A stretch of DNA of 64,000 bases from Tricharina praecox (taxonomy: Eukaryota): assembly GCF_024521635.1 (NCBI RefSeq), contig NW_026250414.1, positions 620,001 to 684,000 of the forward strand, written 5' to 3'. Positions 10,146 to 40,878 of this stretch are shown piece after piece. Within the stretch, counting starts at the first letter, position 1; each line of letters opens with the position of its first letter. Below the pieces are notes generated by a model that was not told the DNA's origin, did no database searches, and was given only the letters and a program-made list of their open reading frames with translations. Made by a program: the position numbers and the translations under genes.

Positions 10146-11878
10146 ATGGCGCCCATGACTTCCGAAAACCAACAACCATTCACGGTGCTAATCGCCGGCG
10201 GCTCGATCACCGGCCTCACCCTCGCCCTCCTTTTATCCCGAGCAGGAATCAACTACGTTGTGCTGGAGCGCGGTAGTTCTCTCGCTCCTCAGCTCGGTGC
10301 CTCACTCGGTCTTCATCCACCAGCCCTAAGCATCCTTGATCAATTGGGCTTGTGGGAGAATGATTTAGAGCCTATTGTCGCAGCGCTACATTCTGGTCAG
10401 CATTTCACCAAAGACGGAAAGTTGTTTGGATCCGCTAGGAATCATGAGGTTGTGCATAAGCAGTGAGTGCCGTTTCACCTTCCGCGTATACTCTTTCCCG
10501 GGCATGGGGGCCAAAAGGGTCCGCTAGCGGCGATACCGAATAGAGCTTTCGCATCAATACGCTGCGACCCCCGCTGCAACGGTCCATGAGAGCTGCCAGT
10601 GACTGCATTTACTGACGCGGCAGTGTTCTCAAGACTGGGATATCCAATCGTTTTCATCGAACGCCAGCTCTACCTCGAGACACTATTGAAATACATCCCC
10701 GAGGAGCACAAGCAGACGTGTATTCACACCAATGCCGGTGTTGCCGACGTCAAACAGGACGACAACTCTGTAACGGTAACGACCACCGATGGCCGCACCT
10801 TCCATGGCGATGTCTTGATCGGTGGCGATGGCGTGCACAGCATGGTGCGCGAACTGATGAATCCCGCACTCAAGGAGGGTGTGTTCTTCCTCCCCAATCG
10901 AACCCCCTCGATTTACGGGCCTAACGGGAAGCAGAATATATTTCCGAGTTCAACTGCATTTTCGGCATTTCGAACGTCACTGAGAAGACGCCGATGCAAG
11001 CGGGAATGGTGTACAACGTGTACGACTCCGGAATCTCCAACGTATGTGCGAGCGGCGTCCCGGGCAAGATCTTCTGGTTCCTGTTCAAGAAGAATTCCCT
11101 GACGCATCCGCCGAACGTACCGCGATTCACGGACGCCGACACCGAGAAGATGGTGGAGGAGCACGGCGACATGCCCATGTGCGCCGACTTCACGATAAAG
11201 GATCTGTGGGAGACGCGGGATAAGGCCGTTCTCGTTGCACTGGAGGAGGGAGTGATTAGCCAGTGGATCGACGGACGAGTTCTGCTCATGGGCGATTCTG
11301 CGCATAAGGTAAGCTGATGCTCATGCTCCTACTCAGAAAGCGTGGAGATACTGATGAATCCCCAGGTAACGATCAATGCCGGCTTCGGCGGCAACACCGC
11401 CATCGAATCCACGGTTCTTTTCAGCAACAGCCTCCACAAGCTCCTGCAATCCAGCCCTCACCCCAGTTCTGCAGAGCTCAAGGCGCTATTCAAGGACTTC
11501 GAGTCGGTCCAGCGCCCTCGCGCAAACCAGATCTTGAAGCTTTCAGCCACGGTCACTCGCCTCGAGGCTCAGAACGGATTGATGTACAAGCTCCTGTCGC
11601 GGTATGTCATGCCACGGCTGAGTGATAAGCTCAAAGCCGGTGTGTTCGTGGATGTCGCCGTTTCGTATCCGGATGTTGAGTTTCTCCCCAAGAAGGCCAG
11701 TCCGATGCAGGATCTGAGGGCTGCGATAAGGGAGAAGAAGGAGAAGGCGGTGAGAGGAAGTAGACTGGCGATGCTTGTTAAGACTGCTGTTGCCGTGGGA
11801 ACCCTGGCGTGGCTGGTCCAGTCTAAGCACGGAATCAAGGGGCTGCAGATGGTTCGGACGCTCCTTGCAGAGAAATAG
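10146..11878 (+). CDS. FAD-dependent monooxygenase (aromatic hydroxylase/PaxM-like), 3 introns, hydrophobic C-terminus
   Basis: Dinucleotide-binding VLIAGGSITGLTLA, DG motif DVLIGGDGVHS and GD motif LMGDSAHK|VTINAGFGGN. Intron 1 is 10463-10633. Confidence 0.92.
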
Positions 11879-16699: not shown

Positions 16700-17585
16700 C
16701 CTGACATGCGATCATGACCTAATAATCCCCCCAGCGGTGAGGAATTGGGTCCACATCTCTTTCATTTTGCCGTCAGTATCCAAGCCAATTGATTACTGGT
16801 TCAACATGGATTACCAGATTCATTCGTCGCGCTGTGGTTTTGGGTGGAACGATGCGAAGGGACGTGGCCATCTGCTGACTGGCTTTTAATATCTCGGAAT
16901 GTGTGGGGTGAAAAGTTGCTTGCGGAAATGCTGCAGCCGGAATCCCCCCATCCGCTGCGGTGCAATGACACCGGGATCCTTCGTTGACGCCCCACCGAAA
17001 GTACCTATCCCTCCGATTTTGGTCTGCCAAACCGGCAACGGCAACCATGGTCATGGCCAGGCAGAAACTCGACTTCTTGCCGTTTTCCGGTGAAATTTCA
17101 AAGGCGGAGCGTCGTTCACCATCGGCAAAATATACTCTATACTAGCCCTCAGATCCCATCCGTACACATTCCTGTGAAGTTTTTAAAACTTCGCAATATG
17201 TGCTAGCTCAATAGAGTGGGGCAGAGCAGCGACGTGTCCTGCAGGCAAGGATTTATAGCACCAATGCGGGTACGTGAGGAAGTATGGTCTAACTATGAAA
17301 CTATGTATCCGCAGCTTCGCGGCTCCACAGCTCTGCAGCCAGTCGGACAAAGACCAAAAAACCATCACAAGGACGCTAGCTCGCAAATCCAAAGCAAAAC
17401 CCACCGCGGTGGCGATCTTCGGTCGGCTGATTAGGTTGCTCTAACCGACTCGTGTCCAAGTGAACTATCCTCAAAAATCCCTATGGAGGGTTCAAACTAT
17501 TTTAAATACAGAGCCTTGCGCCGATGATTTTTTTTTTCGGAAATTAGATTCTATTCAACAACAAAAACCACTACCATACTTCACA

Positions 17586-18123
17586 ATGTTTCCATTCCAA
17601 CGCCTTGTCCGCCGTTTCACTTTTATGGGACCTCCCGAACCCGTGGAGGCACCAATTGTACACGTCCGCCAACAACTACTAGGAAGATACATCAAGTCGG
17701 AAATACTGGAGAATTTCTTGAAGGAAATATTCGAAGAACTAAGTGATGACTTCGAAATGGAGGTGTGTAACTATTCCAAGACTCTCCCCCCGTTGGCAAA
17801 CATGTTCTTACAAAGCTTTCGCAAACAGGAGGTGGACTCTGAGTACTGGGCTGTCAGGGTGCCGAGACTTCTCACCGAGGTAAATAACCCAATTAGAGGA
17901 TCCCCATGGGGTATTCCGGTGTGCTGGATTAAAATCGGACACTAACAATCTTCTGCCTCAGGACGAGATTAAGGAAATCCAACGGCGAAGCACGACACGC
18001 CGACGGAGAAGTAAGAGCCCAACCTATCACGGCCTACTATCTCAAGGAACATTCTCTTCTTGCAGCGAGAGCGTCAAAACCTCCTCGAGGCCGTCATCGA
18101 TAATCAGCAACTGTTCGACGTGA
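17586..18123 (+). CDS. small uncharacterised protein S1 (~129 aa; RYI...VPRLLT-EI family)
   Basis: Exons 17586-17762, 17829-17879, 17962-18123 give ..RQQLLGRYIKSEILENFLKEIF..FEME|EVDSEYWAVRVPRLLTE|DEIKEIQ.. Canonical splice sites; homologous to S2 and S3. Confidence 0.85.
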
Positions 18124-21100
18124 TGCAAAGATATACTCGACATCGGGAAATACTGCGACAGAACGACTGGCGATTCGATTACACGGAGGACGGGTGGGAA
18201 AGTATGTGGCTACATACATGCTCCGTCGCTGGCGGGAGGTTATCGGTATAATACTGCGTCTACCACGACGACGGGAGAATGGACGTCTAAGATCATGGGA
18301 TTGTGGCTGGTGGGATTCAGGGTTGGGGATTTGGTGTCTGAAAGTCGGGATCGGAAACTGGAACCTGGGGCAGTGGCCAACCAGCGTTGGCGCCTGATCG
18401 GGGAGGACTGGGGCTATGAGTTGGGATATGGGAGACCAAGGGGCCGGGGATTTGGGAGGACAAGAAGAGAGGCTGGGGATAGGACTCAGCAAGCACTGTT
18501 GTGTGGAAGATGAACGTGGAACGTGGGGATCTGGGATGTTTGGTTTGCCTTTTACTTGGTGTGTGTAAATTATGTAAATATGGTGCATAGAAGCGCTCGA
18601 GCACCGATCTTTTCATATAGTTCTACCTTTGTAAAAATACAATACCTAATAGTCTATTACTGGAGTCTCTCGGAATCATTAGTTCATGGCCATTTACTAC
18701 CACTACTGTATTTCTCGGAGAGGGGAGGGAAAGTTCGCGCGAAATGAACAATGTCTACTCTAAGGAAAAGTCTCGACCGGGTGCCCCTCCTCCTTGTCCT
18801 ACCCTTCATCCACCTCCACCACCAAATGCTAAGATCTATTTGCATAGATACAGAACATCAAGGGAAACAGAAAAGAGGATTCCACAGTAGAAGTACCTAG
18901 GAAAAACTAAATCCCAGCGTCCCCGGCGGTGGCCAGTATGTACTTTGTAGCGATGTTCGATCCAATCCCAACGCATCGACAACAGCCCGTGGCACCCGAG
19001 ACGGCACGGCCAACATACGCCCTAGGGCTCAGGAGTCGAACGACTTTTCTGGAGTTTCCTGCTTCGGAGGTAAACAGCTTCCGGCATCCCTGCCCTCGTC
19101 TTCTCCGGGACCTTTGGCCCATAGCGTATGAATTTCGGACATGGGTTCGGAAAATCCGCTCGCCGGAGCAGTCACTTGCGCAGGGCAGGGTGCAGACATG
19201 TCCGATCCGAGACGCAGGGACGGAGTCGAGCATCCTCGGGGACTGGACTGGGAGCAGCCGGCGACGTATGTACATGTGGATCTGAGTCGCGGTACTACTT
19301 ACCTATACTACCGTACCGGTAGTAGACGTACCGCGCAACGTTGGCACAAGCGGTCTTTGTGGAGAAGTGCGCCTCGTCTCGCCTCGCTGCTGCCGCTGCT
19401 TGCTCTAGAGCCTTATCCCACGGGCCCATGCCGTCGACTTCGCTTCGCCGGACGACGCCTTACGGAGCCTTACGGGCCTGCCGCTGGCAGCCTGAGGCGG
19501 CTGGTGAGGAGGGGCACATACTGTACTACCGGTATGTACCATGAAGATGCCACAGTAGATGACGGAGAGAGCCGTGATCAATGATTATCCCCTTGAGCCT
19601 CGACATCGTACTTACAACTCTCTACATTTTCCGTTGATTCGAATTTTGGTCGGTATCTCCGACAGAATCATCCGAAGCTCAAACTTCTTCCGCTAGGACT
19701 TCTTCGGTGTGTGCATCCTAATTTTAGCTCGTCCGATATTGACGTCGCCAGCTGGGCGCCACAGCCATAGCCACATCGGCCACTCACTAATCTAGTCATT
19801 CTCTTTGGTTCGTTTGTGCAAAATTCGTATCCAGCTGAGGTGTAGTTTTGTGGCTGGCGATTTTGGTGTCGGCCACGGCACTGTATCACACGAAAGAGCT
19901 GCCCCTCAAACACACGTTTCCCCATGGGCCATAACTCACGCCACGAGCTTGCCCGGGCAGTCGCTCCAATACCGTTGGTGTTCCGTAGAATTGTCCATAA
20001 ACAATTAGATCACAGTTATTCGCTTCTTCAATGATTACATGTATGTATGGAGACCGATCTACGAGTATTTACCATATGTAGGCTATGACAACATTAGTTT
20101 TCAGGTGTGCACCCGGCGGTAGGTAGGGCCCACGGCCAGCGAACTCTGCCTCTGACTACGACCATCTGGGCCGAATCGAGTGAGCTCTCAGGGGGGGGGG
20201 ATGAGAACTCACGCGTGTGTGTGTGTGAGAGAGAGGGACGTGGTACCAATGCAATGGCCAGCCACTAAACCGTCACCCGATGGATCCGATGGATATGCAA
20301 ACCGGGCGCACACATTTCATTGCGCGAAATACCGGCCATTCCACGAGTTGCCACGAACCCTCCCCCTTTTTCTCACCGTTTCGGACCACGCCGACAGTCC
20401 ATCTTTTTTCCCCCGACTATGTGGAATGGAGTCGCGAAGAATCGATTTCGCACCACGTACGTATGTAGCATCCCCTTCCAAAAAAAAGGAGAGAAAAAAA
20501 GAACAGCGGTGGACCGTGCCTACGCGTTTGCCTGTCCCACGCGCGTTTATCTTCAAATGCCGTGTCCCGATCAGAAGTAACTACGTTACCGTACGCGTCG
20601 ACGTACTGGTTTCAGGATCGATGGCGCGATGGATTGCTGGTCCCATGGTGTATGTAGGGGTGGGTATCGGCTCCGTGGGCGGGCGGGCTTGGAGCAAACG
20701 CGCGGGGGCAGTGCTGGTCTGACATCGACGTCGGTGGGGGCGGGGGGCGGGGGGAAGTTGGAACCTACCTAGTAGATGACAGAAGTTCGTCGTGGTCGTT
20801 AGCACCTTTGGATGGTACTCACTCCCAAGGCACACCGCGACGTCGACCTGAATCTACAGGACGTTGATAGGGAGGAAATTCGGATGCCCCGGTGAGCACC
20901 AGCTGAGCCGCCCAATGTCAACCGGTAATGGGAGTAAACCCGTTGGTCTGGTCCAGCACGCTTCACGGCAGGCTAACTGGCTAGCCAAGTGCAACTGTTA
21001 GTTACCCAAGAACCCTGATCATCAAAACCACCAAGATGCGCAGCCCCAAGCAAGAATTCGCTTAACTAGAAGGCCGTGCGCAGGTAGTCTGCCCGTCGGT

Positions 21101-21449
21101 AACTTTATATCAACCTCGGTGCCATGTAACGCAGCAGACGCGGACGCTCTCCGTCAATCCACCCACATCGCGTTGTGGAAATGGGAACCTCACGTAGAAT
21201 TCAGGCTGCATGACTTGAATACGGGTGGCTAGTAGGGTAAAGGTCCATTTACGTCAATTAAGGGGATTTCATAGGCTCCAAGTTGGCCATTTGAATCAGT
21301 ATGTAGTTGGTACCGTTAGTGGCCGGGTCCGGTAAGATGAAGTCGGCCTGCTTGACACTCCGGAGCGCGAACCAGCCACTGCAACCTAGTCAGCCACTTT
21401 TCACTTTCGCTCACGAAAAAACCCGAGTAGTTAGGCTTTCATAAATACT

Positions 21450-21760
21450 ATGGAGGTTCTTGCATTGATGGAGCAAAAGAATCTCAACCTTTTATTGCCG
21501 AAGGCTGAGTATGCACACAATCACGATCCAACGAGTAGGGAAGTGAGGAACTATCCTGGTGATCTTAGGGAAGAATATACGATGAGGCGAGGGGGGTCTT
21601 TAGGGCGCTGTTGCCTCCACAAAATGGGAGATCGACCAGGCTGAAATCATGGGAGATCACTCAGGATCGGCGCCGGCACGGGGTCCGGCACTACTTGCGC
21701 GGGTTCAACTGCCTGGCCGAATACAAACGAACATGGCTAAGCACAGCATACGAAGTAAAG
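21450..21760 (+). mobile_element. degenerate Ty3/gypsy retrotransposon fragment (integrase C-terminal and chromodomain-like remnants)
   Basis: EQKNLNLLLPKAEYAHN resembles the integrase W-x-x-LLP-x-AEFAYN motif. Downstream EITQDRRRHGVRHYL..TW resembles a chromodomain. Short and frameshifted. Confidence 0.4.
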
Positions 21761-22958
21761 CACACCGGGTCTGATATCCCCTCTGAAAATGCCCCATAAA
21801 AATACCCCAAGGTCAGTTACCTACATGACCAAGAGCACAGCTTTGGAAAGAGGATGTCCAAATGGACTTCCCTTTAATTGTGATATCCAAGCCATGCCGG
21901 ATTGTTCAGTGTAAGTAGAGGTCCAGATAAGCGTCTCGAGACCCCGGGTTGCAGAGGGTGAAGCTGGAGCTTTGAGAGCGCCTGTTGATCGTCTGTTTCG
22001 ACTAACCCCGCATGTCGGCCATCGTTTCGGCTGATGATAAGCGAGAGAAGTCTCAGCTTGTGTAATTACTATCAACAACGGAAACAAAAGCGGAAGGTAG
22101 CAGTTGGAGTAGGATCTCAGGGTGTGAGGCGTAATCGAGGCTGATGGCTGGAACCTATCGGCAGACTCTATCCGCACATAGCTGGAATTTTCAAGGCGGA
22201 GCTCTAGGCACGCATCGAGGATATTAGACTGAGCTAGTAAAAACTGATAATAACAGCCCCGCCCACACACTTCTGTGAACAATCCTCGACAACTGTGCAC
22301 ATCCGACGGCCTCAGGACACCCGCGACACGCCGTCCTCTCACTAGCCCTCTGCCTCCTCCAGATTTACGCTACTGATATCGCACCTGATGAGTCATCCCT
22401 ATGCACCCAGTGTTCTACCCCGGAGTCTCTTCCAATAGGGAGCTTCGTACTGGCTCACCGCGGTGCGCGCCAGCCCTGAATACGCGTGTACCCTGCAGCC
22501 CGTCGCTACCGCTACCCGACAATAAGAACGCGCCTTGGGCATATTTTAAGTATAACTGTCTAGCCAGCCGTACGTCGATCCCGATGACGGCACGGCGAAA
22601 TCTGTGTGGCTATGTACTTGCTTGGCCACTAAACCGAGCTCCTGAGCTCGTAATTCTGCCAGACCATACCAACCTCAACACTGAGACCAGCCAGGAGCTA
22701 CGATCCGCAATACACCCATACAGCTCTTCATCGACGCGAAACAAATTGAACCACTGACGAAACACCCCTCGAGCCTTCGAGACACCGACCGAGTCCTTTC
22801 AAAGCGAACGCCCTCGAGCCTCGTACCAGACTCTCGAACGGCCATCATCGACACATAAAACGGTCCTCCGCCCGCCTCCTTACGCATTCCGGCGCTCTCA
22901 CATTCGCAACATCAAAACGAGACACCCAGCGGCACTGCAGCGAGACGCTTTCCAAGCC

Positions 22959-25083
22959 ATGTGCCAAAGCACGAGGGAGGCACTGCGGCGCTGTATGACG
23001 CCTCTGAGTAGATGCGATACGCAGAGGCCGGACGAGTCGTTTCCGCGCCAAAGGGTGCAAGATCTCTTCGAAGCCGACGACGGCCAGCGGCTTCGAGAGT
23101 TGGCCGGCTGCAAGTGCGGTGTCTTCCGAGGATGCGCTTCGCGTCAGAGTCCGGCCTTTGACGAAAACATCATACGTGGTGTGCGCGGAATCGGATATGA
23201 GGAAGGGGAAACGTATCTTGTCGTTCTTGCGTTCCTTTGCTTCGTCGAGCGCATGGACCTCATCCACAGGTTCGTCGAGAAGAGCTACTCAGATCAGTGG
23301 CTTCACGAACATCCGCTCGAACGCCAGCAACTCGATGAACTGTTCTCGTCTCCGGAATCGGATGGTCAGACGTACTCAGCTCACATTGAGTTCGACTTCT
23401 TTCGGTTTTTCCTGCCGACCATCCACGGCCCGGAAAGGCAGCAGAAGTTTCTTTCCATGCAGACGTTGCCGCTCAAGATTATGGAAAGGAAAGGAGGAGG
23501 AGGGTATGGCGTCGTTTACCAGGCCAAGATGCTGGATGGCGGCTATTGCAAGTTCGTTGATGTGAAGGTTAGTCACCCATATTCCCTTCGACTGTCGAAT
23601 GCAAGCGACTAACAGTGGCAGGATGGACTTTTTGCGTTAAAGCGGTACACGAATCCGGTCGTGAGCGATGCCGAAGCCGATTGGGAGAAAGAATGGCGCA
23701 ATAACGTAGTGTACAACAAGCACCCGCACATCAACCCGATCCTTGCGTCGATTGCCCACGGAGACGTGTACATGAACTTCTACTCCCTCTGCGAAGGCGA
23801 TCTCCAGAGGTTGTTCGCAAAGGATCCCAGCCCGGAAGACCACGGAGCAAAGTCGATTTGGCGTCAATATATGGGGTTATTGTCGGCGCTCAACTACATC
23901 CACTGCAGCCAGCCCACCCAGTTTGGCTATCACTTCGATATCAAGACATTGAATATCTTGGTCCTGTTGGGGAGGTGGATGATCGCAGACTTGGGTCTGT
24001 TACACCGCAAGAATAACGAGAGCGGAATGCTATCTGCAACGCCGAGGAGGCCCGGATGCCAGGAATTCGGGGGCCCAGAGACGAAGGTGACGCGGAAGTT
24101 CGATGTCTGGGGGATCGGCTGCGTGGGTTGTATCGCGCTTGTATGGCTGAGAAAGGGGGCCCGCGGCGTCGAGAATTTCAGAGAAGACCGGAGGCAGGAG
24201 GTTGTGCAGATGGGGATGACCAGTATCCTCTACAACTTTTACTGCGAGACACCTAGCGGCCCCCAGCTCCACAAAGAGGTCGACAAGCTTCTGTTGGAAG
24301 CATCCGACGAGGATGATCTTTCAAAGGGCGTTGCTGGGATCTTGAGGGACATGCTGTCCATCGAGGTGGATGCTCGCCCTACCGCAAAGGAGGCCGAGGA
24401 GCGGCTCGCGAAGGTGCTGGGCGTTGAGCCGTTGGATGTTCCAAAACTGCCGCTAGGGTTCCAAAGTGTAAGTACAAGTCTCGCCGGAGCGGCTTTACCT
24501 CGGACCAACGTTTGGATACTGACATTATTTGAAACAGCAGCCGGCGTCGGCGCAGTTAGCCGTACCGGGCGGTGTTCTGGGACCCGTCAAGCCGCTTCAC
24601 TGTAAGTTCATAGCAACTTCTCCGCCGCGGCCACTACTGACGTTACCAGCACAAGCACAAAGCATCGGCGACGAAGTCATCGTCTCGGTTAAGCTTCCCA
24701 GCATGGAACATCCAGGAGCAAGTGTTGAGTTCACCTTTTCGCCAGGAACCGGCGACGAACCGTTATCCTCAGTCACCGTCAGCACCACGCCAACGTTTTC
24801 CATGGCCGAATCCGTACCCGTGCCTGGCTGCCTCACGCAGCGTTCCCAAGATCCACCCCACGAGCACGCCATGCGTATGCCCGGCGAGTGGCCCTACGAA
24901 GCCGATCACGACTACGATGCAGCTTCTGTGGAACCGTCAGGATGCTCACTTGGAACCCCGCAGTGGCCGTTTTCGAGCGTCACGATGGCTTGCAATCTCC
25001 TGTTGAGGAAGGTTCGGTTGAGACGTCAGTCGACACAACACAGCCCGAAATCTATCGCCGCGGCCAGCGGCGTGGACCCTTGA
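22959..25083 (+). CDS. Ser/Thr protein kinase K1 (non-RD) with ~180-aa Cys-containing N-terminal domain
   Basis: GGGGYGVVY, intron 23568-23621, FALK, YHFDIKTLN, IADLGL, FGGPE, KFDVWGIGC, RPTA. Intron 24468-24537 leads into a Pro/Ser-rich tail. Confidence 0.9.
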
Positions 25084-25434: not shown

Positions 25435-25588
25435 CTGTATAGTGAAGGGGGAGGGGGGGGGGGGGGGTAAAAAATACGCTTTTTTCCGTATCGGTACGGT
25501 CAAAAGGCGTATTAGTACGGTCAAAGTACGTATTTAACCGTATCGATGCGGAAAAAGCGTATTTTTTACCCCCCCCTTCACTATATAG
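25435..25588. mobile_element. 154-bp MITE with TA target-site duplication (Tc1/mariner-type)
   Basis: Terminal inverted repeats CTRTATAGTGAAGGGG(G)nTAAAAAATACGCTTTTT..CCGYATCGRTACGGT at both ends, flanked by TA at 25433-34 and 25589-90. Confidence 0.85.
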
Positions 25589-26224
25589 TACCTACGCCGA
25601 TAGCGATACGAGAACGCCCGTTTCCTATCCCAACAAGTTGTGTAGATTTCATTTCGCCGCTTCAACATGCATGGGATGGGGCAGTGGGCGTTAGGCGCTC
25701 CTCGATGTCAGCGACGTCGACACAGCGCTTCGCCTCCCTCGAGAGGTGGAGGCGCCACGACGTCACTGCTCTAGGCATCCCACATAGGTGTGCGCTGTGC
25801 ATCATAGGCACGCATTGTGCTACATACTAGCGTGTGTATTGTAGAGTAACTACATCGCAGTGTGCCAATATCTTTGCAGGTGGCGTAGTGCAGGCAGTTG
25901 TTTGGCACTAGTTAGATAACTAGGGTCCATCCCTGCGCGTGCAGGAGCACTGCGCACTGCGCTCGGGATCAAAGCGACTGGGGTATCCGGAGTATCCGGG
26001 GGTCAGGGTGGGGGGGGGGGGCAAGGGATATGTATCTACGTGATATATTTCCACCTTCCGCCTTGAGCGCATCAACGACTATATCGTGGGCAAAAAATAT
26101 TTGTATAATACATACCGCTCGACGGTCTACCTTCGGGCTGTAGGCCCGCGGTAGTTAGAAGCCAGAAATACCCAGTGACTTCAAGTATTTTCCCATTATG
26201 TACTATGTATGTACTACTTCTACG

Positions 26225-28146
26225 TTAATCAGTGACGTTCATTTCCTCATCCCGTAGCGAAGAAAAGTTCCTTCGCGTGTACTCCCATAACGCCCAAACG
26301 GTAAACGTCAGGGCGAACAGTCCGGTTGTTGCCGCGGCAAACATCCCGATCACCGGACCGAGACTGGAACTGCGGGTATGGAAAATGTCCGTCATACCGA
26401 AGATTGCCTGGAACAGAGCACGCGTGAGAAAGAGGGGAGAGGATGGGAGGGGAGGGGGAGGGGAGTCGCTTACGGCTACGAGAGATGGCGGAAGGTATAG
26501 CATGCACATGATGGTGATCATATTCATGGACTTGGCGTACTCGGTTGCTTTCTCCGACAGCTTGAGCATCAGGCTGTTTTCCTTGCGAGCGAACACGTAC
26601 GGGATCTATGGGGCCAGCGGTTTCAACGGACGGATCCCACCATGCGCACGGCTGCCATGATGGAGTCACTTACGAGCGTGCAGACGAGCGAGAGAAGGCC
26701 TTGTGCGCATTCGATGAGATGCATGACCCGCACTTTGTGTTGCATGGTTTGGAAGAGGAGTTCCTGCAGCTCCCGATCGTACTTTTGGTGTTCGTCACGG
26801 CTGGTGTAGTTGCCTTGGCGCTGGAACTCCTCCATCCCTCGCCGGAGAGACTCGATGTTGGCGTAGTTGATGTCCAGCGCGTGCAGGAGCTGGTGGAGCT
26901 TCACCTTGTAGTGCTGTATCCTCTGGCTGTCGGGCATGACCAGTCCGGACTGGAGGTATTCGTCCACGAGGGCATTTGTCACGCCCGGCCGCCACATGAA
27001 TACCTTGGTGTCGAGCATTCGGAACTCTACGTCCAGGGCGTCGATATGCTCTGTCCAGTTCTGGCTCGCCGACTTCATCAGGAGCAGGTGTATTTCTTGA
27101 TCGTGGGCGTGCGCCTTTCCCGCCTTTCCCAGCCGCTTGGTCACCCGGTCCAGGTAGCTCTTGCGCCCGGGCTGGATCAGCACCCACGTGGTCCGGGATT
27201 CCTTTGGCTCGCGCTTCGCATACACGCCGATCTTGCGAGTGGTCCATATCGGGTGGTGGCCATCCGCGTGTGACGGCCGCTGCTCGACGTACTTGAAGTT
27301 GTAGCACAGTTCTGAAACCCCTCCGTCATCAGCTATCGTACGTACAGCACGAGCGAGCGACCGACCAGCCCGCAACATACCGAAAGTCTCCTCACGGGCT
27401 CCATCGGAACCACCATCGCTTGCTGGCGTAAAGTGCTGTCGATACACGGCATAATCCTCGTTCACCTCGTCCGTCTTTCCGCCAAAGAGGTGCAGCACAT
27501 CGAGGAACCCGGGGAAGATGGAGAGCCGAGAAACCAAGTGCCAGAGCATCTCCCAGCATATCGGAAGTTTTGCGAACGAGATGGTCGGCTGGATGGTCCT
27601 AATCACCGATCGATTCTTCTCAGATCACGACGTTCCCCTACCCCGGAAGAGCATAGATGCAGACTCCCGCGACGATGACTCACAGGAATATGTTCTGGTT
27701 GGTGGGCTTGTACGTACAATACATACTCGTCAGTACGGTACGGCGGCGAGCAGCATTTCACTCGCGGAGAACGAGTCGGAGACTACTGACTTTGACGGCG
27801 TCCAGGAGCTGTTTGACGGCCGTGGAAACGTCGCCGCTGCCCATTCCCGTCGATATGTTATTCGTGTAGTATCCCCCGCTAGCTGGGCCTTTTGTTCGGT
27901 AGATAGTATATAAGCGTCGGCTGGCCCGGAGTTTCGCGAGTACCGGGGGAGGGGGTGCCCCGATCCACTACCAAATAGAGTACTCGGGTACTAACCTCCT
28001 TCTATGCGACTACACGATGTTGCCGTCATTGACGTCACGTCGCCGAGCAGCCGCGCTGCTTTCTTCACCAGTCGCGCATGGTACCATTCGGCATCGACGT
28101 CGTAAGCGTGATTCTCGAAGTACGTGAGCCATCTGTCGGACGTCAT
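26225..28146 (-). CDS. CorA-like two-TM protein C1 (alternative start 28263)
   Basis: Spliced: IFPGFLDVLHLFG, ELCYNFKYVE, WTTRKIGVY, long helical region, MNMITIMCMLYLPPSLVA|AIFGMTDIF, second TM ending WALW. This is a CorA-type C-terminal architecture. Confidence 0.88.
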
Positions 28147-28683
28147 GGTCGTCGTCGGAGGTTTGGTGTGCGGGGGCTCGACGAAGACGGCGCACTCGCA
28201 CGCGACGATGTTGCTGTCGCTATCGCAGCAATCGCAGACAGATTCGGATGTAAAAGGGCACATGGGATGTGGGGAAGAATTATTGCAGTTGGTAGTGGGG
28301 CCCGAATGCAATGAATCGAGACCGGACGGAAGAGTCTCGGAAAGATTGGTTCGATCGGTGGGAGTAGGATGTAGGTATCTAGCAGGCAGGTAGGCAGTGG
28401 AATTATATTCCCGCTGTGCGCGCACACTCAGGACAGAGTTCTGGTGGGGGCTACAGTATAGTAGAGCCTACTAATTCGCGTGACGAGATGCACGAGGATC
28501 AGGCTGAGCAGCAACTGCCGTAGGCGTCCAACAAGAACTTACTTTTCTTTTCCAACCCAGTCATCAACTCCCTCCCCCACATATGAGCGAACACAACCAG
28601 CTTCGATCTGCCTCCCTATCCGCCCTCCCCCAGCGGTACTATTCTAGCCACCACCCAGCAGTTATTTCTCGCAGAGTCGCTAA

Positions 28684-29232
28684 TTACTCCGGGTTTGACT
28701 GGTCTTGAAGAGTGATAATCTCCTGCTGTAGACCCGATCGCGCCGTTAGCTACTCTGGGGTACATCGGCAGGCCGCAGGCAGGCAGGTATTCCGACCTCT
28801 GTAAGGCGACACGGCACCTTGATCCTCCAAAATATGCTAGTGCCGTACCCGGTAACCTCCTACATACCGTACGCCAGACCATCAGTATGATAACTATCCC
28901 GCCGTTCGTTCAGCCGGTTCGGTTTGGAAAAGCAGAGCACAGAGTGCGGACCTCGATGGACATCATTTCGCCTCCGAAAGACTGCCCCTTCCATTTCTCC
29001 TGTATGAAGTCTTGCAAAATGTTCTTCTTGATGTACCTGTAGCACACTACTTGTTAGTATAGGTAGTACATGGGGCGGAGTAGATATTGTGATAACTAAG
29101 TGCACGCTGGGACTCTGGGAGATGCTTTTGGCCGCTGACTCCTGCTCTCACGCGAGGGTGATGGGGGGATGAATGACCATACCTGCCAGAAAGGTCCTGA
29201 ACGATCATCACTTCGGCGGAGCTGCTACTCAT
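28684..29232 (-). CDS. small uncharacterised protein S3 (~79 aa)
   Basis: Exons 29232-29183, 29036-28952, 28859-28797, 28725-28684 give MSSSSAEVMIVQDLSGRYIKKNILQDFIQEKWKGQSFGGEMMSIE|EVTGYGTSIFWRIKVPCRLTE|QEIITLQDQSNPE*. Intron positions match S2. Confidence 0.85.
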
Positions 29233-31631
29233 TCGGTATTGCGTGTAAACTAGGTTTGGATCTGTTTCCTGGCGTCGATTTGCCGAAGTAGTGAAGTTGC
29301 TGCTCAAGGAAGGAAGGATTGCGATGATTGTTTCCGGCTTCTTGGATTCATTCGCAATCGGATTTGGCGATGATTCCTCCGTAGGCTCTATTTAAATGGG
29401 AAAAGAAACCTCAGCGGTCCGCGTTTGTAAATGGCAATGGCAATGGCGTTTAGTCGCCAGGCTGGCGAGGCGAGGCGGTGTGCCGTGTACGCAACCGACT
29501 ACACGGCAGGCTGAGTTTGAGTCGGCATGCTCGGTACATACTGTATGCAGGAGCGTACTAGAGTTGATTATTGGTTGGTTGGTGGGTTGGTGTCCCACCA
29601 TGTTATCTTCATACTTGGTGGGATGTTTCGACGGTTTGCGCAGTATTTCTGCGCATTCAAGTTGCGGTTACATACCCCTACCAGGGCTAATGTGCTTCGA
29701 GAGTAGATTAGTCGATAGTGCAAGACGATTGCATCGCGTTCCTCCGTTCAATGTTATCCCGGGGAGCCTACATTAATCACGAAAACGCCCACCCCGCAGC
29801 CCCCTATCAGTGCTCGGTGCTCACCATCGTCCGATATCTAGAGTACAGACTAGATACATGCATTATCTACCGAACTCTGCGAAGCCCACCTGGAGCCTCA
29901 TGCACATGTGCTCTACATGCGTTCACATACAGCCACGATTTGTTTCACCTCTTGGTTAGCTGGGTATGAGGTATGTGTGTAAGTTCTTGGATAACAAGTA
30001 GGCCTTCGGAAATTCCTGCGAATTTACACGGGATTGTGCGCTCTTCGCACGCGGTGGTGATGACAGCATTGCATGGAGTATGTAGAGGCCTCACCATGAT
30101 CTCCAGGATGTGACTAGTCAACTCGCTCATCACCGATGCCAACTTGCTCCATCTAGAGTAGTTATCCAATCAGAAACGAACAACACTGTGCGCAATGATT
30201 CTGATGGAGAGACTCAACGCCCATCGTGTCACAAGACTGGGGCTCCACGTCCAACGACTGGTGATCGCCTTTGTTACCTAGAGTAGTTAGCGGTGATCGG
30301 ACCCGGTCGGCGGTGAATTCGAGTCACTAGTAGTTGACTACCCCGCGACCAATTGCCAGCCCCAGCAACCCGCGACGATCATGTCAGCTATGTCAGCTAG
30401 CATACATGGGCACAGCTGCACATTTTGCACACAAACACAGCCGTGCTGCAAACCCGAGATGCGGATAAAACTAAAGGCTTTTAAAAGCGGTTGGCTGCAA
30501 GCCTGCAACGCGAACACAGCAACGGAGACAGCAAGCTGAGGGAGAGAAGCGCCCTATGGGATTAGCTACTTGTGTGGTTCTATGGGACAGGATGGTGATG
30601 ACGATAGCTGGGCTGGATGGCGAATTTGTTCGCGCTCGAGCGGAAGGACAGACACGATCATCGAGTTGCGGCACCGGCTCCGAAGGCTCAGCCCATCTAC
30701 ACCGAACCTAGATCAACCAGCAGACATCTCTCTATCTCGAGAGAGAGGAACACGGCACACACGGCACACACACGCACAACTGCTGAGCCCGACGACCCAT
30801 AACTCCCCCATCCATAAAGCCCGCTCAGGTGTTGCAACTCAGAGCCGAATGACCACCACGTCGAGAAGTAGCCTGCTCGCCCGAACTACGAACCGCGAAC
30901 ATTGCCTCCGTGCATGCTGCCGGCTTGGAGCCAGCGGGAAATCGAAGGACATCAATATCCGACGCTGCTCTTTCGATGCGGAGAAGCGGCGGGTCGCGAC
31001 AGGTTACCTACTTGCAGTACATACAGTCGGCCGACCCCTTGCTCAGCCTGCCTACCTAGTACATGCCACATGGGGGCAATCACTGGCCGGTGAAACATTG
31101 TTCAGCAAGCACACAACGGGCTCCGTTAGGGGCGCAGTTTTCGAGCCCACGCCCTTCAGCTCAGTTCGCGACGATGTCACTCTTTTAAGGTTCAAACGGA
31201 ACGATCGAGACTTGGCCACCCTGCCTGCCACGCTAAAGGTTGATTTGTGTTGTGGCCAATGATTCACAACGTTGGGACTTCGCCTGTTTTCCACTTCCAC
31301 TACAGCTCACCCAGCTCACAAATCATACTTCGGAAAGTGGCCTACTTACTCATACCGCGGGGAAAAAACCAAAAAGACTGCCAGCGCCCGATGCACTTGA
31401 TTCCTCTGGAGATGCACTCCATTGCTAGAGCTGCTAGCGGCTTCCTACTGGGTCCCGTTCCCCACACCGCCAGGCCGACACCACGGCAGTCAAACGGCAA
31501 GAGTCGGCTTTAGCCATGTAGGAGAAGGAAACCTGCAGGCGGTGTGATTATTATTGTGCATACCTAGCAGCAGACACACTTCGCAGCTTAAATACTCGCT
31601 GCCTACATTCACCGATCGCAAAAATGCGAAA
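29233..31631. promoter_or_regulatory. divergent intergenic/promoter region between S3 and S2
   Basis: Head-to-head starts. TATA-like TTAAATA lies upstream of S3 (~29390, minus strand) and of S2 (~31588). Confidence 0.45.
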
Positions 31632-32146
31632 ATGGGCAAACAACCCCCGGCACCCAAGCCCAAGCCTTCGACGATGTACCAGCAAGACCTCCCCACCAGG
31701 TTCGTTCCGTTGCGATGCGTTGCGATGCGTTTCCCACTAACTTCGCATCCCATCACATCACGGCCGCTCGCTGATGATGACGATGAGTGCGACTCGGATA
31801 GATACATCAGTCGCCACGCACTGCTCAAGTTCCTACGACAGCGATTCCCCAACGCCGCGCCGCAGGAGATGAGTATAGAGGTACGTTCGTTCGTTGGCCG
31901 CAACAGACACAGCCACAGCCTTGTGCCGCGCTGAGCTGAATGCTAAGCACGCGGCGGTTTGAAGGAGGTCGATGCGGCGTACTGGCGTATCGTCATTCCT
32001 GAGAGGCTCTCGCAGGTATGTAGCCTCCCCTTCAGCCGGCTGGCAGGTGTGCTTGGATGCTTGGTTTTCGGTCAGGACGTGCACTGAACATCGATGCCCC
32101 CGCTCCCCCGTCACAGGACGAAATAGATGAGATACAAAATATGTAA
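31632..32146 (+). CDS. small uncharacterised protein S2 (~75 aa)
   Basis: Exons 31632-31699, 31802-31880, 31965-32015, 32117-32146 give MGKQPPAPKPKPSTMYQQDLPTRYISRHALLKFLRQRFPNAAPQEMSIE|EVDAAYWRIVIPERLSQ|DEIDEIQNM*. Confidence 0.87.
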
Positions 32147-32565
32147 TGTGCTGGTGTACTTGAATGGAGGACCGTGGGCCTGGGTGGAGGTGTTATTCGA
32201 TCTGTGCTGGGTGTTTCAGAAGTTTATATTAGGTGTATCATGGGAGGGGTGAATTTAACGGTCTCAACCGCTGGCCTATAACAGCGGAGTCGCTATCGCT
32301 CCAGTGAAAAGTCGCTTTGAGCCTCGTGTAGACGGGCATAATTGCCAGTCGAACCAATCTCTCAGGATGTGTAGTGTAACTAACAGTGCTCCACCTGTGA
32401 TCCTCCGGCTGAGGTAGTGCAGATACGGGGGGCGGTTGTATATAAAGTCGAAAGATGTGCCGCACAACGCGCATCGCACATCGCGCATCGGACATTATCA
32501 GAGCCAGTTCTTCCTCAAGTCCCAAGTCCCAAAAGATTCACTATCCATCTTGCAGCGAAGCAGGG

Positions 32566-34823
32566 ATGGAGATCTACAGGCCCAGAAGCAAATCATCCGC
32601 GCCGGTGCCGTATTTCCTCGCAGGCGCCGAAAAGTATCCGCAACAGCACACACATACAAATACACGCCACGATCCAGCGCGCATCGACATCCGGCGGTTC
32701 GACGACCGCTGGAAAAGCGATTGCGACCGCGTCCTAGGCGAGAAAACTAGCATCGACGTTGTTTCGGTGGTTTATTCACACCCGCGTGGTGGTGCGGGGA
32801 TGAAGGGTATGTAACGTTCGTTCTGGGTTGGTTGCAGGCTGGCAGGCGGCTAATCAAATCTGCGCGTGCATGCATGACGGCATGCTGGATGTTTCAGGGC
32901 TGATAGTTGATGTTGGGGTAGAAACACTCACATTGAAAAGGCGGCTGGTGACCGACGAGGCGAGCCTGGCGGAAGTTCATTCGTCGTCGCAGAGTGGCAC
33001 GAGGGGACTGGCCTTGGCCGCTGCGAGATGTGGCTCCACAGGCTCCACCGGCTCCACGGAATATGCATCGTCGTCCGGAGACGAAGACTCTGAAATTGCC
33101 CTCTGTGCACACGCAGAATCTCCGCCGGCTGGCGCGCATACCTTCTTGTATTTATCCCCCCCCCCCCCCCCCCCCCCGGTCCGATCCGTGCGGATCGAGG
33201 GACTAAAAGAAAGCGCAGTTTTGTCAAACCGAGGATTTCGTACGGCCTGCTGCTGATGTCGAAGGACATACAGCAGAAGCTGCTGACGACGCTGGACGTG
33301 TTTCCCGCGTTCCTGGATATCCTCCATCTGTTTGGCAGGAAGCACGAGGAGATTAACGAGGATTATGCGGTCTACCGACAAGAGATAGTCTGGAGAGAGG
33401 AGGAGCAGGAGGCCTGGATCGCACCCAGTGTTCCTGAAGCATTCGGTATATTACCCTCGATCGTTTTGTGTTGTGTGTGCTTGTGAACCCGCGTTGACGG
33501 TGCTGTGAAATCGCAGAGATATGCTACAACTTCCGCTATGTAGTCCAGCGGAAGGGGAATGTTGAAGGCGAAGAGCTCATCTGGACGACGCGGAAGATGG
33601 GTGTCTATTCCAAGTTTGTGCCCGCGACCAACACGACCACGTGGATACCCGTGTATCCGCCCGATGAGGCAATTCCGCGCTTGGAGGAAGTGTTTACGAG
33701 CGATTCGAAGCGGAGGCGAGGAATGCGACATCATATCGATATTCACCTACTGTTAATGAAGACTGCAAGCCAGGACTGGCTGCCGTTCATCAACCATCTA
33801 GATAAGAAGCTGATAGAGTTGGTACGATGTCCTGTTCTCCGCCGTAGTTGACCCGAGACTTGTAGCTGACTGGCCCCAAGGACAAAAAGACGTACATGTG
33901 GCGGCCCAAACCGGGGAGCACTATCACCAATGAGCACAGAGACTCGGACTCCGAGTTGGAGCTGGAGGACACGCAGCGGGTGCAGAGATTCAAGATCGAG
34001 CTGCTGACGATAATCCACGCGCTCGACGTCAACCTAGCCAACATCGCCTCTCTCCGACGGGGAATAGAATCCTTCCGCAGAAAGACCAAAGTCTACATCA
34101 CTGACGACCTTTACAAGCAGTACGACGAAGATCTCGAGGACCTGCACATCCTGATGAGCCAGCACCGGGTGCGAGTCAAGAACCTCCTGCAGCGCGCCGA
34201 GAGCCTCTTCTCGCTCATCATCACCATCATACCATATATCTTTGCGCGCCGTGAAAACACCCTGATGTTCCGCCTCTCCGAAAAGGCCACCCAGTACGCG
34301 AAATCAATGAAGGTCATCACCATCGTGTGCATGCTATATCTGCCGCCATCCGTCATTGCCGTATGTTATTACTATTCTCCTTCCTGCCACCTGTCCACTC
34401 AGCATGCTCATATATATATACCAGGGCGTTTTCGGAATGGACTTCTTCCATCCGAGCTGGGACATCGCAATCATGTGGGCGATCTTCATATGCGCCACGG
34501 TGATTCTGGCGGCGTCGACCATCGGCCTCTGGCTGTGGTGGGAGCACAGATGTTTACGAGATGAGGAAGGAGGAGGTGGCAAAGTAGATAGCGAAAACAC
34601 AGGAGGAGGACGAGGAGGAGACGAAAATACGGGGGTGACGGTGGCGGAGACTCCGGTAGGCGCGGGGTTGAACTGGTGGCGAAGAACCTCGCGGCTCAAG
34701 TGGTGGCCAAGAACCCCGCCGCATATCTGGTGCAGGACAAACTCTGGGCTGGTGGACGTCGAGCGGGGCTCACCCTATCGAGAGAAGTATGTGGAGTCTT
34801 CGAGGAATCCGACGATGGGTTGA
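32566..34823 (+). CDS. CorA-like two-TM protein C2 (alternative start 32455)
   Basis: TATATAAA at ~32439. Spliced motifs AEKYPQQ, FVKPRISYG, VFPAFLDILHLFG, EICYNFRYV, WTTRKMGVY, MKVITIVCMLYLPPSVIA|GVFGMDFF, second TM ending WLWW. Confidence 0.88.
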
Positions 34824-38918: not shown

Positions 38919-40878
38919 ATGGCCCCGTCGGCGGTTCGTTCTCAGAACTTCGTCAGCACAACTCCTAAGCGCGATCCGTTTGCCGACTCAGAGCACTACC
39001 CTCTCAACAGCCCGACATGGCGCGATCCCATCAGCGTCGACCTGAAGCGCTGCAAAAAGGATCTGAATGAAGCCGGCACGAAGATCTTCGGCAGCGTCAC
39101 CCAATTCGACGTCGTAGCAGTCAATTACTTCAAGGAAAGAGACGGTAGGTACAGTGCTAGCGAACGAATGAACGATGGCAAAGATAGATTCCGTGCTGAC
39201 TGTGTGCGCAAGCGATAACCTCCCAATTTTCAACCGCTAGGGTTTGCGATGAGGGGGGATTGAGGTCGGTTCTCTCATCGTGTAACAGTGGGATACCCTT
39301 GTACCTCGAGCCCGGCCCGGACAGAGCCTACGCGGATCATAGTCCGCCGGACGACGACTCAAGCTCGAACAGCAGCTTTGTGCAGGTTTTGCCTGCCGAT
39401 GTCGAGAAACGCATCGATCGCACTGCCGTCGGTCAGCATGTGGAGCCTCTCACTCTTGTCGGTCAGCATATGTTCTTGTGCGTACTTTCATCTCCGTCCT
39501 CGAATGGCTCGCGCAGACAGATTGACTAAAACCTTATCTTCCGCGTGTTTTTAGCTTTCTGAAACCCAAATATTCGTTTGGGGCGCTCTTGATCTCGCTG
39601 GAGATCCAACGGAAACTTCTGACGGCTCTGAACGTGTTCCCCGCCTTCTTGGATATTCTGCATCTGTTTGGGGATAAGTGCGATGAGATGAATGAGGACT
39701 ATGCTGTCTATCAGCAAGAGATCACCTGGGAAAGGGACAAATATATGAACGCAACCAAAACTCCCGAAGCATTCGGTAAGTGCACTTCATCTGTTGTGCT
39801 TCCATGCTTGCCTTGCGAGACCTCATTGGCTGAGCTACAGAACAACAGAGATCTGTTACAACTTCCGCTATATTGATCAGGCCGTGAAGGGCCAGGGCGA
39901 AAGTTTCACGTGGAGGCGGAAGAAAATGGGCTTCTATTCCAAATATGTGCCGGCAACCAAGACGAGCACGTGGATATCCGTACTTGCGCCCAGAGAATGC
40001 GTACCCCGCTTGAAGGATGTGTTCACGAGCGATCCAATGCATCCGCGAGAAAGACGCCATGATCTAGATATTCATATCTTATTCATGCAGATTGCAACCC
40101 GGAGTTGGCTGCCGTACATCAATGCATTAGACGATGATCTGAGGAAGATGGTCTGCCCACTTAACTCCATTTTCGACTCCCGGAACACTCTGGCTGACTG
40201 CTCCGAAGGACAAACGGGCGTTCCTGTGGCGGCCAAAGCCGGGGAACCTAATCCTGAAAGCGCACAAAGATTCAGAGCTAGAGCTCGTTGACACGCAACG
40301 CGTACAGAAATTCAAGATCGAGCTGCTAACGATGATCCACGCACTCGAAGTCAACCAGGCCAATATCGCCTCTCTCCGACGAGGCATAGAATCCTTCCGC
40401 AGAAAGACCAATGTCTACATCACCGACGACCAGTACAAGCAGTACGACGAAGACCTCGAGGACCTTCACATCCTGCTGAGCCAGCACAAGGTACGTGTCA
40501 GTAATCTACTGCAGCGCGCCGAGAGCCTCTTCGCCCTCATCATCACCATCATTCCCTACAACTATGCGCGCCACGAAAACACCCTGATGTTGCAGCTATC
40601 CGAGAAGGCAGCCGTGTATGCCAAGTCGATGAAGGTCATCACGGTCGTCTGTATGCTTTATCTGCCGCCATCCGTCGTAGCCGTATGTCATCACCCTTTC
40701 CCCCCTACCGTTTACCCAAGATGTTGATATGTGCCAGAGCATATTTGGGATGGGCTTTAGCGATCCGACGTGGTCGACTTCGGTCACGTGGATCGTTTTC
40801 ACTGCCATTACCATAGGCCTGGCGATGTTGAGTATTTTAGTCTGGCTGTGGTGGGAAAAAAAATGCGCAAAAGAATAG
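38919..40878 (+). CDS. CorA-like two-TM protein C3
   Basis: SEHYPLN, FLKPKYSFG, VFPAFLDILHLFG, EICYNFRYI, MKVITVVCMLYLPPSVVA|SIFGMGFS, second TM ending WLWWEKKCAKE*. Intron pattern is similar to C2. Confidence 0.88.

What the first reader, a model, noticed from the sequence alone, without database searches (positions are those of the whole stretch)
28684..32146. Hidden family of multi-exon microproteins (three paralogs) not recoverable from the ORF track
Hand splicing yields S3 (79 aa, minus), S2 (75 aa, plus) and S1 (129 aa, 17586-18123). They share Q-x-L-x-x-RYI-x4-L-x-x-F[LI]..[IM]E|EV..[YF]W-x-[IV]-x-[VI]P-x-x-L[TS]-x|[DQ]EI-x-x-[IL]Q. All three have phase-0 introns at E|EV and before xEI, and S1 and S2 share an identically sized 51-nt exon. 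S2 and S3 also share a phase-2 intron in the R of RYI. S2 and S3 each end ~400-550 bp upstream of a co-oriented CorA-like gene. I cannot assign a named domain. Inference: adaptor, inhibitor (antitoxin-like) or kinase substrate.
Basis: partly seen in the sequence, partly recalled or inferred. Interest (0 to 1): 0.8.

Follow-up and report, generated by a model that had tools for sequence, protein, structure and literature searches.

The report
Three hidden spliced small-protein genes
Three diverged copies of a small, intron-split gene with no known domain are really present in this cup-fungus DNA, two of them beside CorA-like membrane-protein genes, but what they do is still unknown.

Summary
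Splicing at the stated junctions (8 of 8 introns GT..AG) gives S2 (75 aa, +), S3 (79 aa, -) and S1 (129 aa, +). They are 36-39% identical over 66-69 aa. They share two phase-0 intron sites, and S2 and S3 share a phase-2 site.

In-silico evidence says they code:
- in-frame codon usage;
- conservation highest at codon position 2 and near-random at position 3;
- a TTAAATA element upstream of each start;
- one outside relative with matching intron sites among 1.84 billion proteins.

No Pfam, PDB or Atlas match was found.

The window is Tricharina praecox: NCBI protein P0008 is the neighbouring gene C2. C2, C3 and C4 are CorA-like but lack the GMN motif.

S2-C2 and S3-C3 form one old inverted duplication, so the S-C adjacency counts as one event. 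S1 has no C next to it, and C4 has no S. The adaptor, antitoxin and kinase-substrate ideas have no support.

Not tested: transcripts, synteny in other fungi, and folding of the spliced proteins. Moderate interest.

The parts
31632..31699 (+). S2 exon 1 (68 nt, ends in phase 2). The start codon is uncertain: an out-of-frame ATG lies at 31624 and an in-frame ATG at 31674.
31802..31880 (+). S2 exon 2 (79 nt; RYI..L..FL helix block, ends ..SIE)
31965..32015 (+). S2 exon 3 (51 nt; EV..YW.I.IP..LS. block)
32117..32146 (+). S2 exon 4 (DEI..IQ tail and TAA stop)
29183..29232 (-). S3 exon 1 (50 nt, ends in phase 2)
28952..29036 (-). S3 exon 2 (85 nt; RYI..L..FI block)
28797..28859 (-). S3 exon 3 (63 nt; EV...FW.I.VP..LT. 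block, 4 codons longer than in S1 and S2)
28684..28725 (-). S3 exon 4 (QEI..LQ tail and TAA stop)
17586..17762 (+). S1 exon 1 (177 nt; no intron at RYI)
17829..17879 (+). S1 exon 2 (51 nt). The preceding 66-nt intron is in frame and stop-free, so exons 1-2 read through as one ORF.
17962..18123 (+). S1 exon 3 (DEI..IQ, then a 47-aa Arg/Ser/Thr-rich tail, TGA stop)
17502..17508 (+). TTAAATA (TATA-like), 78 nt upstream of the S1 ATG
31588..31594 (+). TTAAATA (TATA-like), 38 nt upstream of the S2 ATG
29389..29395 (-). TTAAATA (TATA-like), 157 nt upstream of the S3 ATG
32566..34823 (+). C2, the CorA-like gene downstream of S2. It equals NCBI protein P0008 of Tricharina praecox from 32870 on. The first exon, 32566-32806, is missing from that model.
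26225..28263 (-). C3, the CorA-like paralog downstream of S3 (about 40-44% identical to C2 and its relatives)
38919..40878 (+). C4, a younger direct duplicate of C2 (54-80% identical; end approximate). It has no S gene or remnant upstream.

Best explanation
S1, S2 and S3 are three genuine, separately transcribed, intron-split genes of a lineage-restricted small-protein family in Tricharina praecox (Pezizomycetes). They have no signal peptide, no transmembrane stretch and no detectable known domain.

The conserved core of about 55 residues reads as an amphipathic helix (RYI-x4-L-x2-F[LI]), then a variable loop, then an aromatic strand ([YF]W-x-[IV]-x-[VI]P), then a short acidic helix ([DQ]EI-x2-[IL]Q).

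Shown in silico: reading frames, splice signals, protein-level constraint, own TATA-like elements, and one relative elsewhere.

Inferred: such a small soluble core with no catalytic-looking residues most likely works by binding another protein. The prime candidate partner is the cytosolic N-terminal part of the CorA-like membrane protein encoded 420 nt downstream. I put that sub-claim at only about 0.25, because the S-C pairing goes back to a single duplicated two-gene segment.
For: 1. Gene structure. 8 of 8 introns are GT..AG, and most have a CTRAY-like branch site 15-35 nt before the acceptor (intron ends printed).

2. Codon usage. In-frame scores are +0.310 (S2), +0.283 (S3) and +0.111 (S1) bits per codon, and both shifted frames are negative. 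Known exons of the window score 0.229. Random 76-codon windows have median -0.292, 95th percentile 0.059 and 99th percentile 0.283. GC3 is 0.69/0.70/0.56 against 0.69 for known exons.

3. Constraint is on the protein, not the DNA. Pairwise nucleotide identity is 0.57-0.60 at codon position 2, 0.39-0.50 at position 1 and 0.32-0.36 at position 3. Of the identical residues, 12 of 28, 14 of 28 and 13 of 25 use different codons. Promoter and spacer DNA do not align.

4. Shared intron positions and phases. In S2 and S3 the intron at E|EV must be removed: one has a stop in frame and the other is 92 nt long.

5. Promoter element. TTAAATA occurs 6 times in the window on both strands (3.49 expected). 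Three of the 6 lie in sense 38-157 nt upstream of the three S start codons. C2 has its own TATATAAAG near 32438.

6. Outside relative. An exhaustive HMMER search of 1.84e9 proteins found P0006 (123 aa, 40% identical, E 2.5e-5). It is an unspliced reading frame with about 22 extra residues exactly where S1 intron 1 lies, beginning V-C and ending Q as GT..AG signals dictate. Its frame leaves the family after ..LTE, where intron 2 lies.

7. For the link to C. Both old copies of the S-C pair keep both genes intact, co-oriented and 419/420 nt apart.
Against: - No transcript, ribosome or peptide evidence was available.
- Only one relative was found outside the window, and it may be a paralog from the same species.
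- The donor sites of two S3 introns (GTCCGC, GTCGGA) are far from the usual GTRNGT.
- The S1 codon score is modest.
- The start codons are uncertain. An out-of-frame ATG lies 8 nt before the S2 start.
- Against the link to C: S1 stands alone. C4 has no S. The adjacency is one duplication event. A 420-nt spacer is a small target for rearrangement, so retention is the null expectation. None of 7 C relatives contains S-like sequence.
- The secondary-structure reading is by eye plus a poor model (mean pLDDT 46.2).
Confidence: 0.7

Rival explanations
1. S2 and S3 are not separate genes but belong to the C transcripts. They could be 5' exons spliced onto C as an alternative N-terminal domain, or an upstream reading frame of a bicistronic or long-leader mRNA that tunes C translation.
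For: - They are co-oriented and only 419/420 nt upstream of C.
- All three S stop codons are preceded by G, giving GTAA or GTGA, a possible phase-2 donor.
- In C2 a good acceptor (..CTACAG|G at 32579) would continue in frame. In C3 two AG|C sites within the first 17 codons would also do so (read).
- The public C2 model (P0008) is wrong at its 5' end, so this region gave the gene caller trouble.
Against: - TATA-like elements lie between S and C (TATATAAAG near 32438).
- In-frame acceptors are expected by chance, at 1 in 3 per AG.
- The implied introns of about 430-470 nt are far longer than the 53-146 nt seen here.
- 0 of 7 C relatives carries S-like sequence at its N-terminus.
- S1 has the same structure with no C behind it, and C4 starts at an equivalent ATG with no S.
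Confidence: 0.12
2. S is the neutralising or inhibiting half of a two-gene toxin-antidote-like pair with C, or a dedicated substrate or adaptor of the kinases K.
For: - S-C adjacency holds in 2 of 3 S and 2 of 3 C.
- C lacks the GMN selectivity motif of true CorA Mg channels, so its activity is open.
- The S1 tail is Arg/Ser-rich. From general knowledge, such stretches resemble basophilic-kinase sites.
Against: - No similarity to any antitoxin, immunity or kinase-docking family was found.
- C4 exists without an S, and S1 without a C.
- The kinases are not adjacent to any S.
- C-type genes occur in at least four named Pyronemataceae species as ordinary annotated genes.
- There is no sign of a selfish or mobile unit, and no flanking repeats beyond the gene duplicates.
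Confidence: 0.05
3. The S loci are decayed or non-coding relics. The similarity is left over from duplication, with no present protein product.
For: - There is no expression evidence.
- No spliced S1 protein is in the protein collection that holds the NCBI proteome of this species.
- Two S3 donor sites are non-consensus.
Against: - All three frames are open across all exons at 36-39% identity.
- The codon-position pattern and codon usage are typical of selected coding sequence.
- DNA outside the exons has lost all similarity, so neutral decay would have destroyed the frames as well.
Confidence: 0.06

Closest known systems
Lineage-specific small spliced genes missed by eukaryotic gene callers (smORF or microprotein genes; general class, PMC8435553, seen as search listing and start of abstract only)
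   Same: Products under 100-130 aa, split into very short exons of 30-85 nt. They are absent (S1) or unverified (S2, S3) in the public proteome, and are recognisable only through paralog comparison.
   Different: Here there are three old paralogs under protein-level constraint with conserved intron positions. This is stronger than what a typical single smORF candidate offers.
CorA/Mrs2/Alr1 Mg2+ channel family (Pfam PF01544). This concerns the neighbour gene C, not S.
   Same: Full-length C relatives match the C-terminal part of the CorA profile, including the two membrane helices. P0008 scores 32.7 bits against a cut-off of 27.
   Different: The GMN signature is replaced by GMD (C2/P0008), GMT (C3) or GMG (other relatives). 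The roughly 400-aa N-terminal part has no match in the Pfam copy searched. The database's precomputed label PF26616 could not be resolved: 0 papers.
Bacterial small proteins that act on Mg2+ transporters (MgtS with MgtA). Function recalled; papers seen only as a listing, e.g. 10.1101/2024.02.28.582502.
   Same: A very small protein possibly acting on a cation-transporter-like membrane protein. This is only an analogy for the partner sub-claim.
   Different: MgtS is a membrane peptide of a bacterium acting on a P-type ATPase. S is soluble, eukaryotic and spliced, has no sequence similarity to MgtS, and no binding has been shown.

Membership tests
Any Pfam-A family (for S) | Profile match at or above the family's gathering score | tested here: not met
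   S1 exons 1-2 read through: best DUF6323 at 14.4 bits (cut-off 30.6) and DUF3783 at 13 bits (cut-off 27). S2 exon 2: Sid-5 at 12.6 bits (cut-off 27). S3 exon 2: none.
Any protein of known structure (for S) | Significant sequence or profile match to a PDB chain | tested here: not met
   best E 0.43 with the two-sequence profile A2. No fold comparison was made, because the only model had mean pLDDT 46.2.
CorA-like Mg2+ transporter, PF01544 (for neighbour C) | Profile match above the gathering score of 27 bits | tested here: met
   3 of 7 full-length relatives are above the cut-off (P0008 = C2 at 32.7, P0009 at 27.8, P0013 at 27.7 bits). Two are below it (22.6 and 24 bits), and two truncated models have no match. 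Window ORF pieces alone reach only 14.9 and 9.6 bits, because an intron splits the region.
CorA-like Mg2+ transporter, PF01544 (for neighbour C) | G-M-N signature at the end of the first membrane helix (recalled as the defining selectivity motif) | tested here: not met
   FGMD in C2/P0008, FGMT in C3, FGMG in P0009, P0010, P0012 and P0013.
Toxin-antidote or toxin-antitoxin-like gene pair (S with C) | One product is harmful alone and the adjacent product neutralises it by binding | not testable with these tools
   No assay was possible. The complex predictor takes only unaltered contiguous sequences, so spliced S2 and S3 could not be given.
Upstream ORF or 5' exon of the downstream gene | S and C lie on one transcript | not testable with these tools
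   No transcript data. Indirect signs against it: own TATA-like elements and 0 of 7 C relatives with S-like sequence.

The most novel reading that the evidence does not exclude
S and C form a conserved two-gene unit. In it a soluble microprotein of a fold not yet described binds the cytosolic funnel of a pentameric CorA-like pore that has lost the GMN filter, and gates or silences it. That would make it the first dedicated microprotein regulator of a CorA-superfamily protein in eukaryotes. S1 would be a freed copy that has acquired a phosphorylatable tail.
Probability: 0.1. Interest if true: 0.7.

Novelty: new member of a known kind. Interest (0 to 1): 0.35.

Why it matters
The case shows that short multi-exon genes can escape a public fungal annotation. 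S1 has no spliced counterpart in the protein collections searched. The neighbouring C2 model is also wrong at its 5' end.

It gives exact exon coordinates for a protein family with no known domain, which RNA-seq can check directly. If the S-C pairing proves functional, it would open a way into the large, uncharacterised group of fungal CorA-like proteins that lack the Mg2+ selectivity motif. As it stands, it is one more lineage-restricted orphan family of unknown function.

Tried and rejected
Searches that found nothing more:
- Word-index searches with S1 exons 1-2 read through found only the query's own reading frame P0001. The same search with a profile of P0001 + P0006 returned only those two profile members.
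- The exhaustive search gave a third hit, P0007, a 1713-aa repeat protein. I rejected it because it matches only query residues 55-73, which are mostly intron-coded, and the score is summed over 7 repeats.
- ESM Atlas: P0006 scored 0.76, which is noise. P0001 gave no usable hit. P0005 was not accepted.

Structure:
- AlphaFold2 on S1 exons 1-2 with its retained intron, using a 2-row alignment, gave mean pLDDT 46.2. I judged it unusable and made no fold search.
No complex job was sent.

Other copies and remnants:
- A C remnant beside S1 was suggested by weak tblastn hits at 17480-17427 (E 2-7). The C profile did not confirm it.
- No S remnant was found upstream of C4.
- An apparent resemblance between the S3 tail and the N-terminus of Wilcoxina P0009 was seen by eye. 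The S profile did not support it.

Other checks:
- Rfam found no RNA family in the region.
- Bacterial-type promoter and terminator scans are not informative for a fungus.
- Literature searches for PF26616 (0 papers), for CorA-like fungal clusters and for Tricharina praecox gave nothing bearing on S.

Unchecked:
- Whether S2 and S3 are annotated in the public proteome.
Full report
WHAT IS THERE

I read the three loci and joined the exons by coordinate in scripts.

| Gene | Strand | Exons | Product |
|---|---|---|---|
| S2 | + | 31632-31699, 31802-31880, 31965-32015, 32117-32146 | 75 aa |
| S3 | - | 29232-29183, 29036-28952, 28859-28797, 28725-28684 | 79 aa |
| S1 | + | 17586-17762, 17829-17879, 17962-18123 | 129 aa |

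All 8 of 8 introns are GT..AG and are 66-146 nt long.
- Two phase-0 introns sit at homologous places in all three genes, after ..E|EV and before [DQ]EI.
- S1 and S2 share a 51-nt exon; the S3 counterpart is 63 nt.
- S2 and S3 share a phase-2 intron in the Arg of RYI, which S1 lacks.

IS IT MORE THAN CHANCE?

- **Motif specificity.** Five regular expressions derived from the stated motif gave 15 matches in six frames of the whole window. All 15 fall in the three loci.
- **Pairwise similarity.** The spliced products are 36-39% identical over 66-69 residues, with BLASTP E 1.6e-15 to 1.6e-11.
- **A test with less freedom.** Junctions can be chosen to flatter an alignment, so I searched each spliced product against 3085 stop-to-stop segments of the window. 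S2 and S3 found the unspliced S1 frame at E 1e-4 and 3.1e-4. Single short exons were individually weak (E 0.17 to 5) but were still the first non-self hits.
- **No fourth copy.** A profile of the three found nothing further; the best other hit had E 0.35.

IS IT CODING?

- **Codon usage.** I trained on 3326 codons of supported exons of the window. In-frame scores are +0.310 (S2), +0.283 (S3) and +0.111 (S1) bits per codon, and both shifted frames are negative. The training exons score 0.229. Random 76-codon windows have a median of -0.292, a 95th percentile of 0.059 and a 99th percentile of 0.283. GC3 is 0.69/0.70/0.56 against 0.69.
- **Codon positions.** Between paralogs, nucleotide identity is highest at position 2 (0.57-0.60) and lowest at position 3 (0.32-0.36). 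About half of the identical residues use different codons: 12 of 28, 14 of 28 and 13 of 25.
- **Non-coding DNA.** Upstream regions and the S-C spacers no longer align.

So what has been kept is the protein, not the DNA.

OWN PROMOTERS

TTAAATA occurs 6 times in the window on both strands, against 3.49 expected. Three of those 6 lie in sense 38, 78 and 157 nt upstream of the S2, S1 and S3 start codons. I chose the motif after seeing it, so the enrichment is suggestive rather than a formal test. C2 has its own TATATAAAG near 32438.

RELATIVES ELSEWHERE

Only contiguous window translations can be handed to the search tools. I therefore used S1 exons 1-2, which read through the in-frame, stop-free 66-nt intron 1 (98 aa).

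- The word-index search found only the window's own ORF, P0001.
- The exhaustive HMMER search of 1.84e9 representatives found 3 proteins at E <= 0.001:
  - P0001, the self hit.
  - P0006 (123 aa, 40% identical, E 2.5e-5).
  - P0007, which I reject. It is a 1713-aa repeat protein that matches only residues 55-73, mostly intron-coded, and its score is summed over 7 repeats.
- P0006 is again an unspliced frame. It has about 22 extra residues at the place of S1 intron 1, beginning V-C and ending Q as splice signals dictate, and it leaves the family right after ..LTE, where intron 2 sits. The profile of the spliced S proteins matches it in two pieces on either side of that insertion.
- A profile of P0001 + P0006 found nothing more.
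- Pfam, PDB sequences and the ESM Atlas gave nothing.

Caveat: properly spliced relatives below about 50% identity would score too low against a query that carries an intron. The family may therefore be wider than it looks.

No spliced S1 protein of any length turned up, although the collection holds this species' NCBI proteins. S1 therefore appears unannotated there. S2 and S3 could not be checked.

THE ORGANISM AND THE NEIGHBOURS

A profile of the conserved part of the three C paralogs found 7 proteins at E 1.3e-90 to 2.8e-53. They come from Tricharina praecox, Wilcoxina mikolae, Trichophaea hybrida and Pyronema omphalodes, plus two records whose source name gives no species (P0012, P0013).

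P0008, a T. praecox hypothetical protein, is C2 itself: 561 of its 562 residues are covered by exact 12-mers of the window.

The P0008 model starts at 32870 and lacks the exon 32566-32806. Residues 41-86 of Wilcoxina P0009 support that exon (E 1.4e-4).

Full-length C relatives match Pfam CorA:
- 3 of 7 are above the 27-bit cut-off.
- 2 of 7 are below it.
- 2 of 7, both truncated models, have no match.

The window pieces alone reach only 14.9 and 9.6 bits. The GMN signature, which I recall as the defining motif, is replaced by GMD, GMT or GMG. 'CorA-like' is therefore fair, but a Mg2+ channel function is doubtful.

ARCHITECTURE

There are three C paralogs and two kinase paralogs:
- C3, 28263 to 26225, minus strand.
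- C2, 32566-34823, plus strand.
- C4, 38919 to about 40878, plus strand.
- K1, about 22758-24602, plus strand.
- K2, about 47835-45984, minus strand.

S3-C3 and S2-C2 face away from each other across 2.4 kb with no coding-like ORF. Together they form one old inverted duplication of a two-gene segment. S2 and S3 are 36% identical, and C3 is about 40-44% identical to the C2 type. The S-stop to C-ATG distance is 419 and 420 nt.

C4 is a younger direct copy of C2 (spacing about 6.3 kb, 54-80% identical) with no S or S remnant upstream. S1 has no C or C remnant nearby. No kinase adjoins an S.

WHAT IT MOST LIKELY IS

These are real, separately transcribed small-protein genes (about 0.7-0.85).

The core looks like helix - loop - aromatic strand - short acidic helix. 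This is read by eye, because the only model had pLDDT 46.2. There is no signal peptide, no membrane segment and no catalytic-looking motif. A role by binding another protein is therefore the most economical inference.

The downstream C protein is the first candidate partner. I rate that at about 0.25 for these reasons:
- The adjacency is one event.
- A 420-nt spacer is a small target for rearrangement.
- S1 and C4 are unpaired.

RIVALS

- **S exons as part of the C transcripts (0.12).** All three stops are preceded by G, so a GTAA/GTGA donor in phase 2 is thinkable, and in-frame acceptors exist in C2 and C3. Against it: in-frame acceptors are expected by chance, the implied introns would be 430-470 nt, TATA-like elements lie in between, and 0 of 7 C relatives carries S-like sequence.
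- **Antidote, adaptor or kinase substrate (0.05).** No evidence.
- **Decayed relic (0.06).** Contradicted.

VERDICT

This is a newly delineated, lineage-restricted orphan family. Such families are common in fungi, and no function can be assigned, so interest is moderate (0.35). The decisive data were out of reach here: transcripts, synteny in other Pezizomycetes, and folds of the spliced proteins.

Noticed in passing
window 32566-32897: The public Tricharina praecox model of C2 (P0008) starts at an ATG at 32870, inside what looks like the first intron. It lacks the exon 32566-32806, which residues 41-86 of a Wilcoxina homolog support (E 1.4e-4). C4 has the equivalent exon at 38919-39146.
   Followed up: partly
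window 22758-24602 (+) and 47835-45984 (-): Two protein-kinase paralogs (Pfam Pkinase E 4.3e-13 on K1). They share an N-terminal region of about 250 aa, 27% identical, with no Pfam match.
   Followed up: no
window 58576-58691 (-): A complete 5S rRNA gene (Rfam RF00001, 61.6 bits).
   Followed up: no
window 31624: An out-of-frame ATG lies 8 nt upstream of the proposed S2 start. An in-frame ATG at 31674 would give a 61-aa product starting just before the conserved core, and S3 has a similarly placed second Met. The true S start codons are therefore uncertain.
   Followed up: no
window 32143-32146, 28684-28687, 18120-18123: All three S stop codons are preceded by G, giving GTAA, GTAA and GTGA. 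These are potential phase-2 splice donors exactly at the stop.
   Followed up: partly
window 25447-25477, 26001-26030, 33151-33182: Long poly-G/poly-C tracts of 14-22 nt lie in or near the C3 and K1 3' regions and in a C2 intron.
   Followed up: no
window 2638-3006 (+), 6836-7748 (-), 10095-11099 (+), 52542-53510 (-): Other gene fragments: two fungal-rhodopsin-domain membrane proteins (PF20684, E 8e-15 and 5e-26), an FAD-binding monooxygenase (PF01494, E 1e-10), and an ORF with a partial 14-3-3 match (E 1e-9).
   Followed up: no
window 60092-62341 (-): An uninterrupted 750-aa reading frame with no Pfam match at E <= 0.001.
   Followed up: no
window 18124-22757 and 29233-31631: Stretches of 4.6 kb and 2.4 kb have no stop-free frame of 60 aa or more with coding-like codon usage. 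That is unusually gene-poor for a compact fungal genome, or further short-exon genes are hidden there.
   Followed up: no
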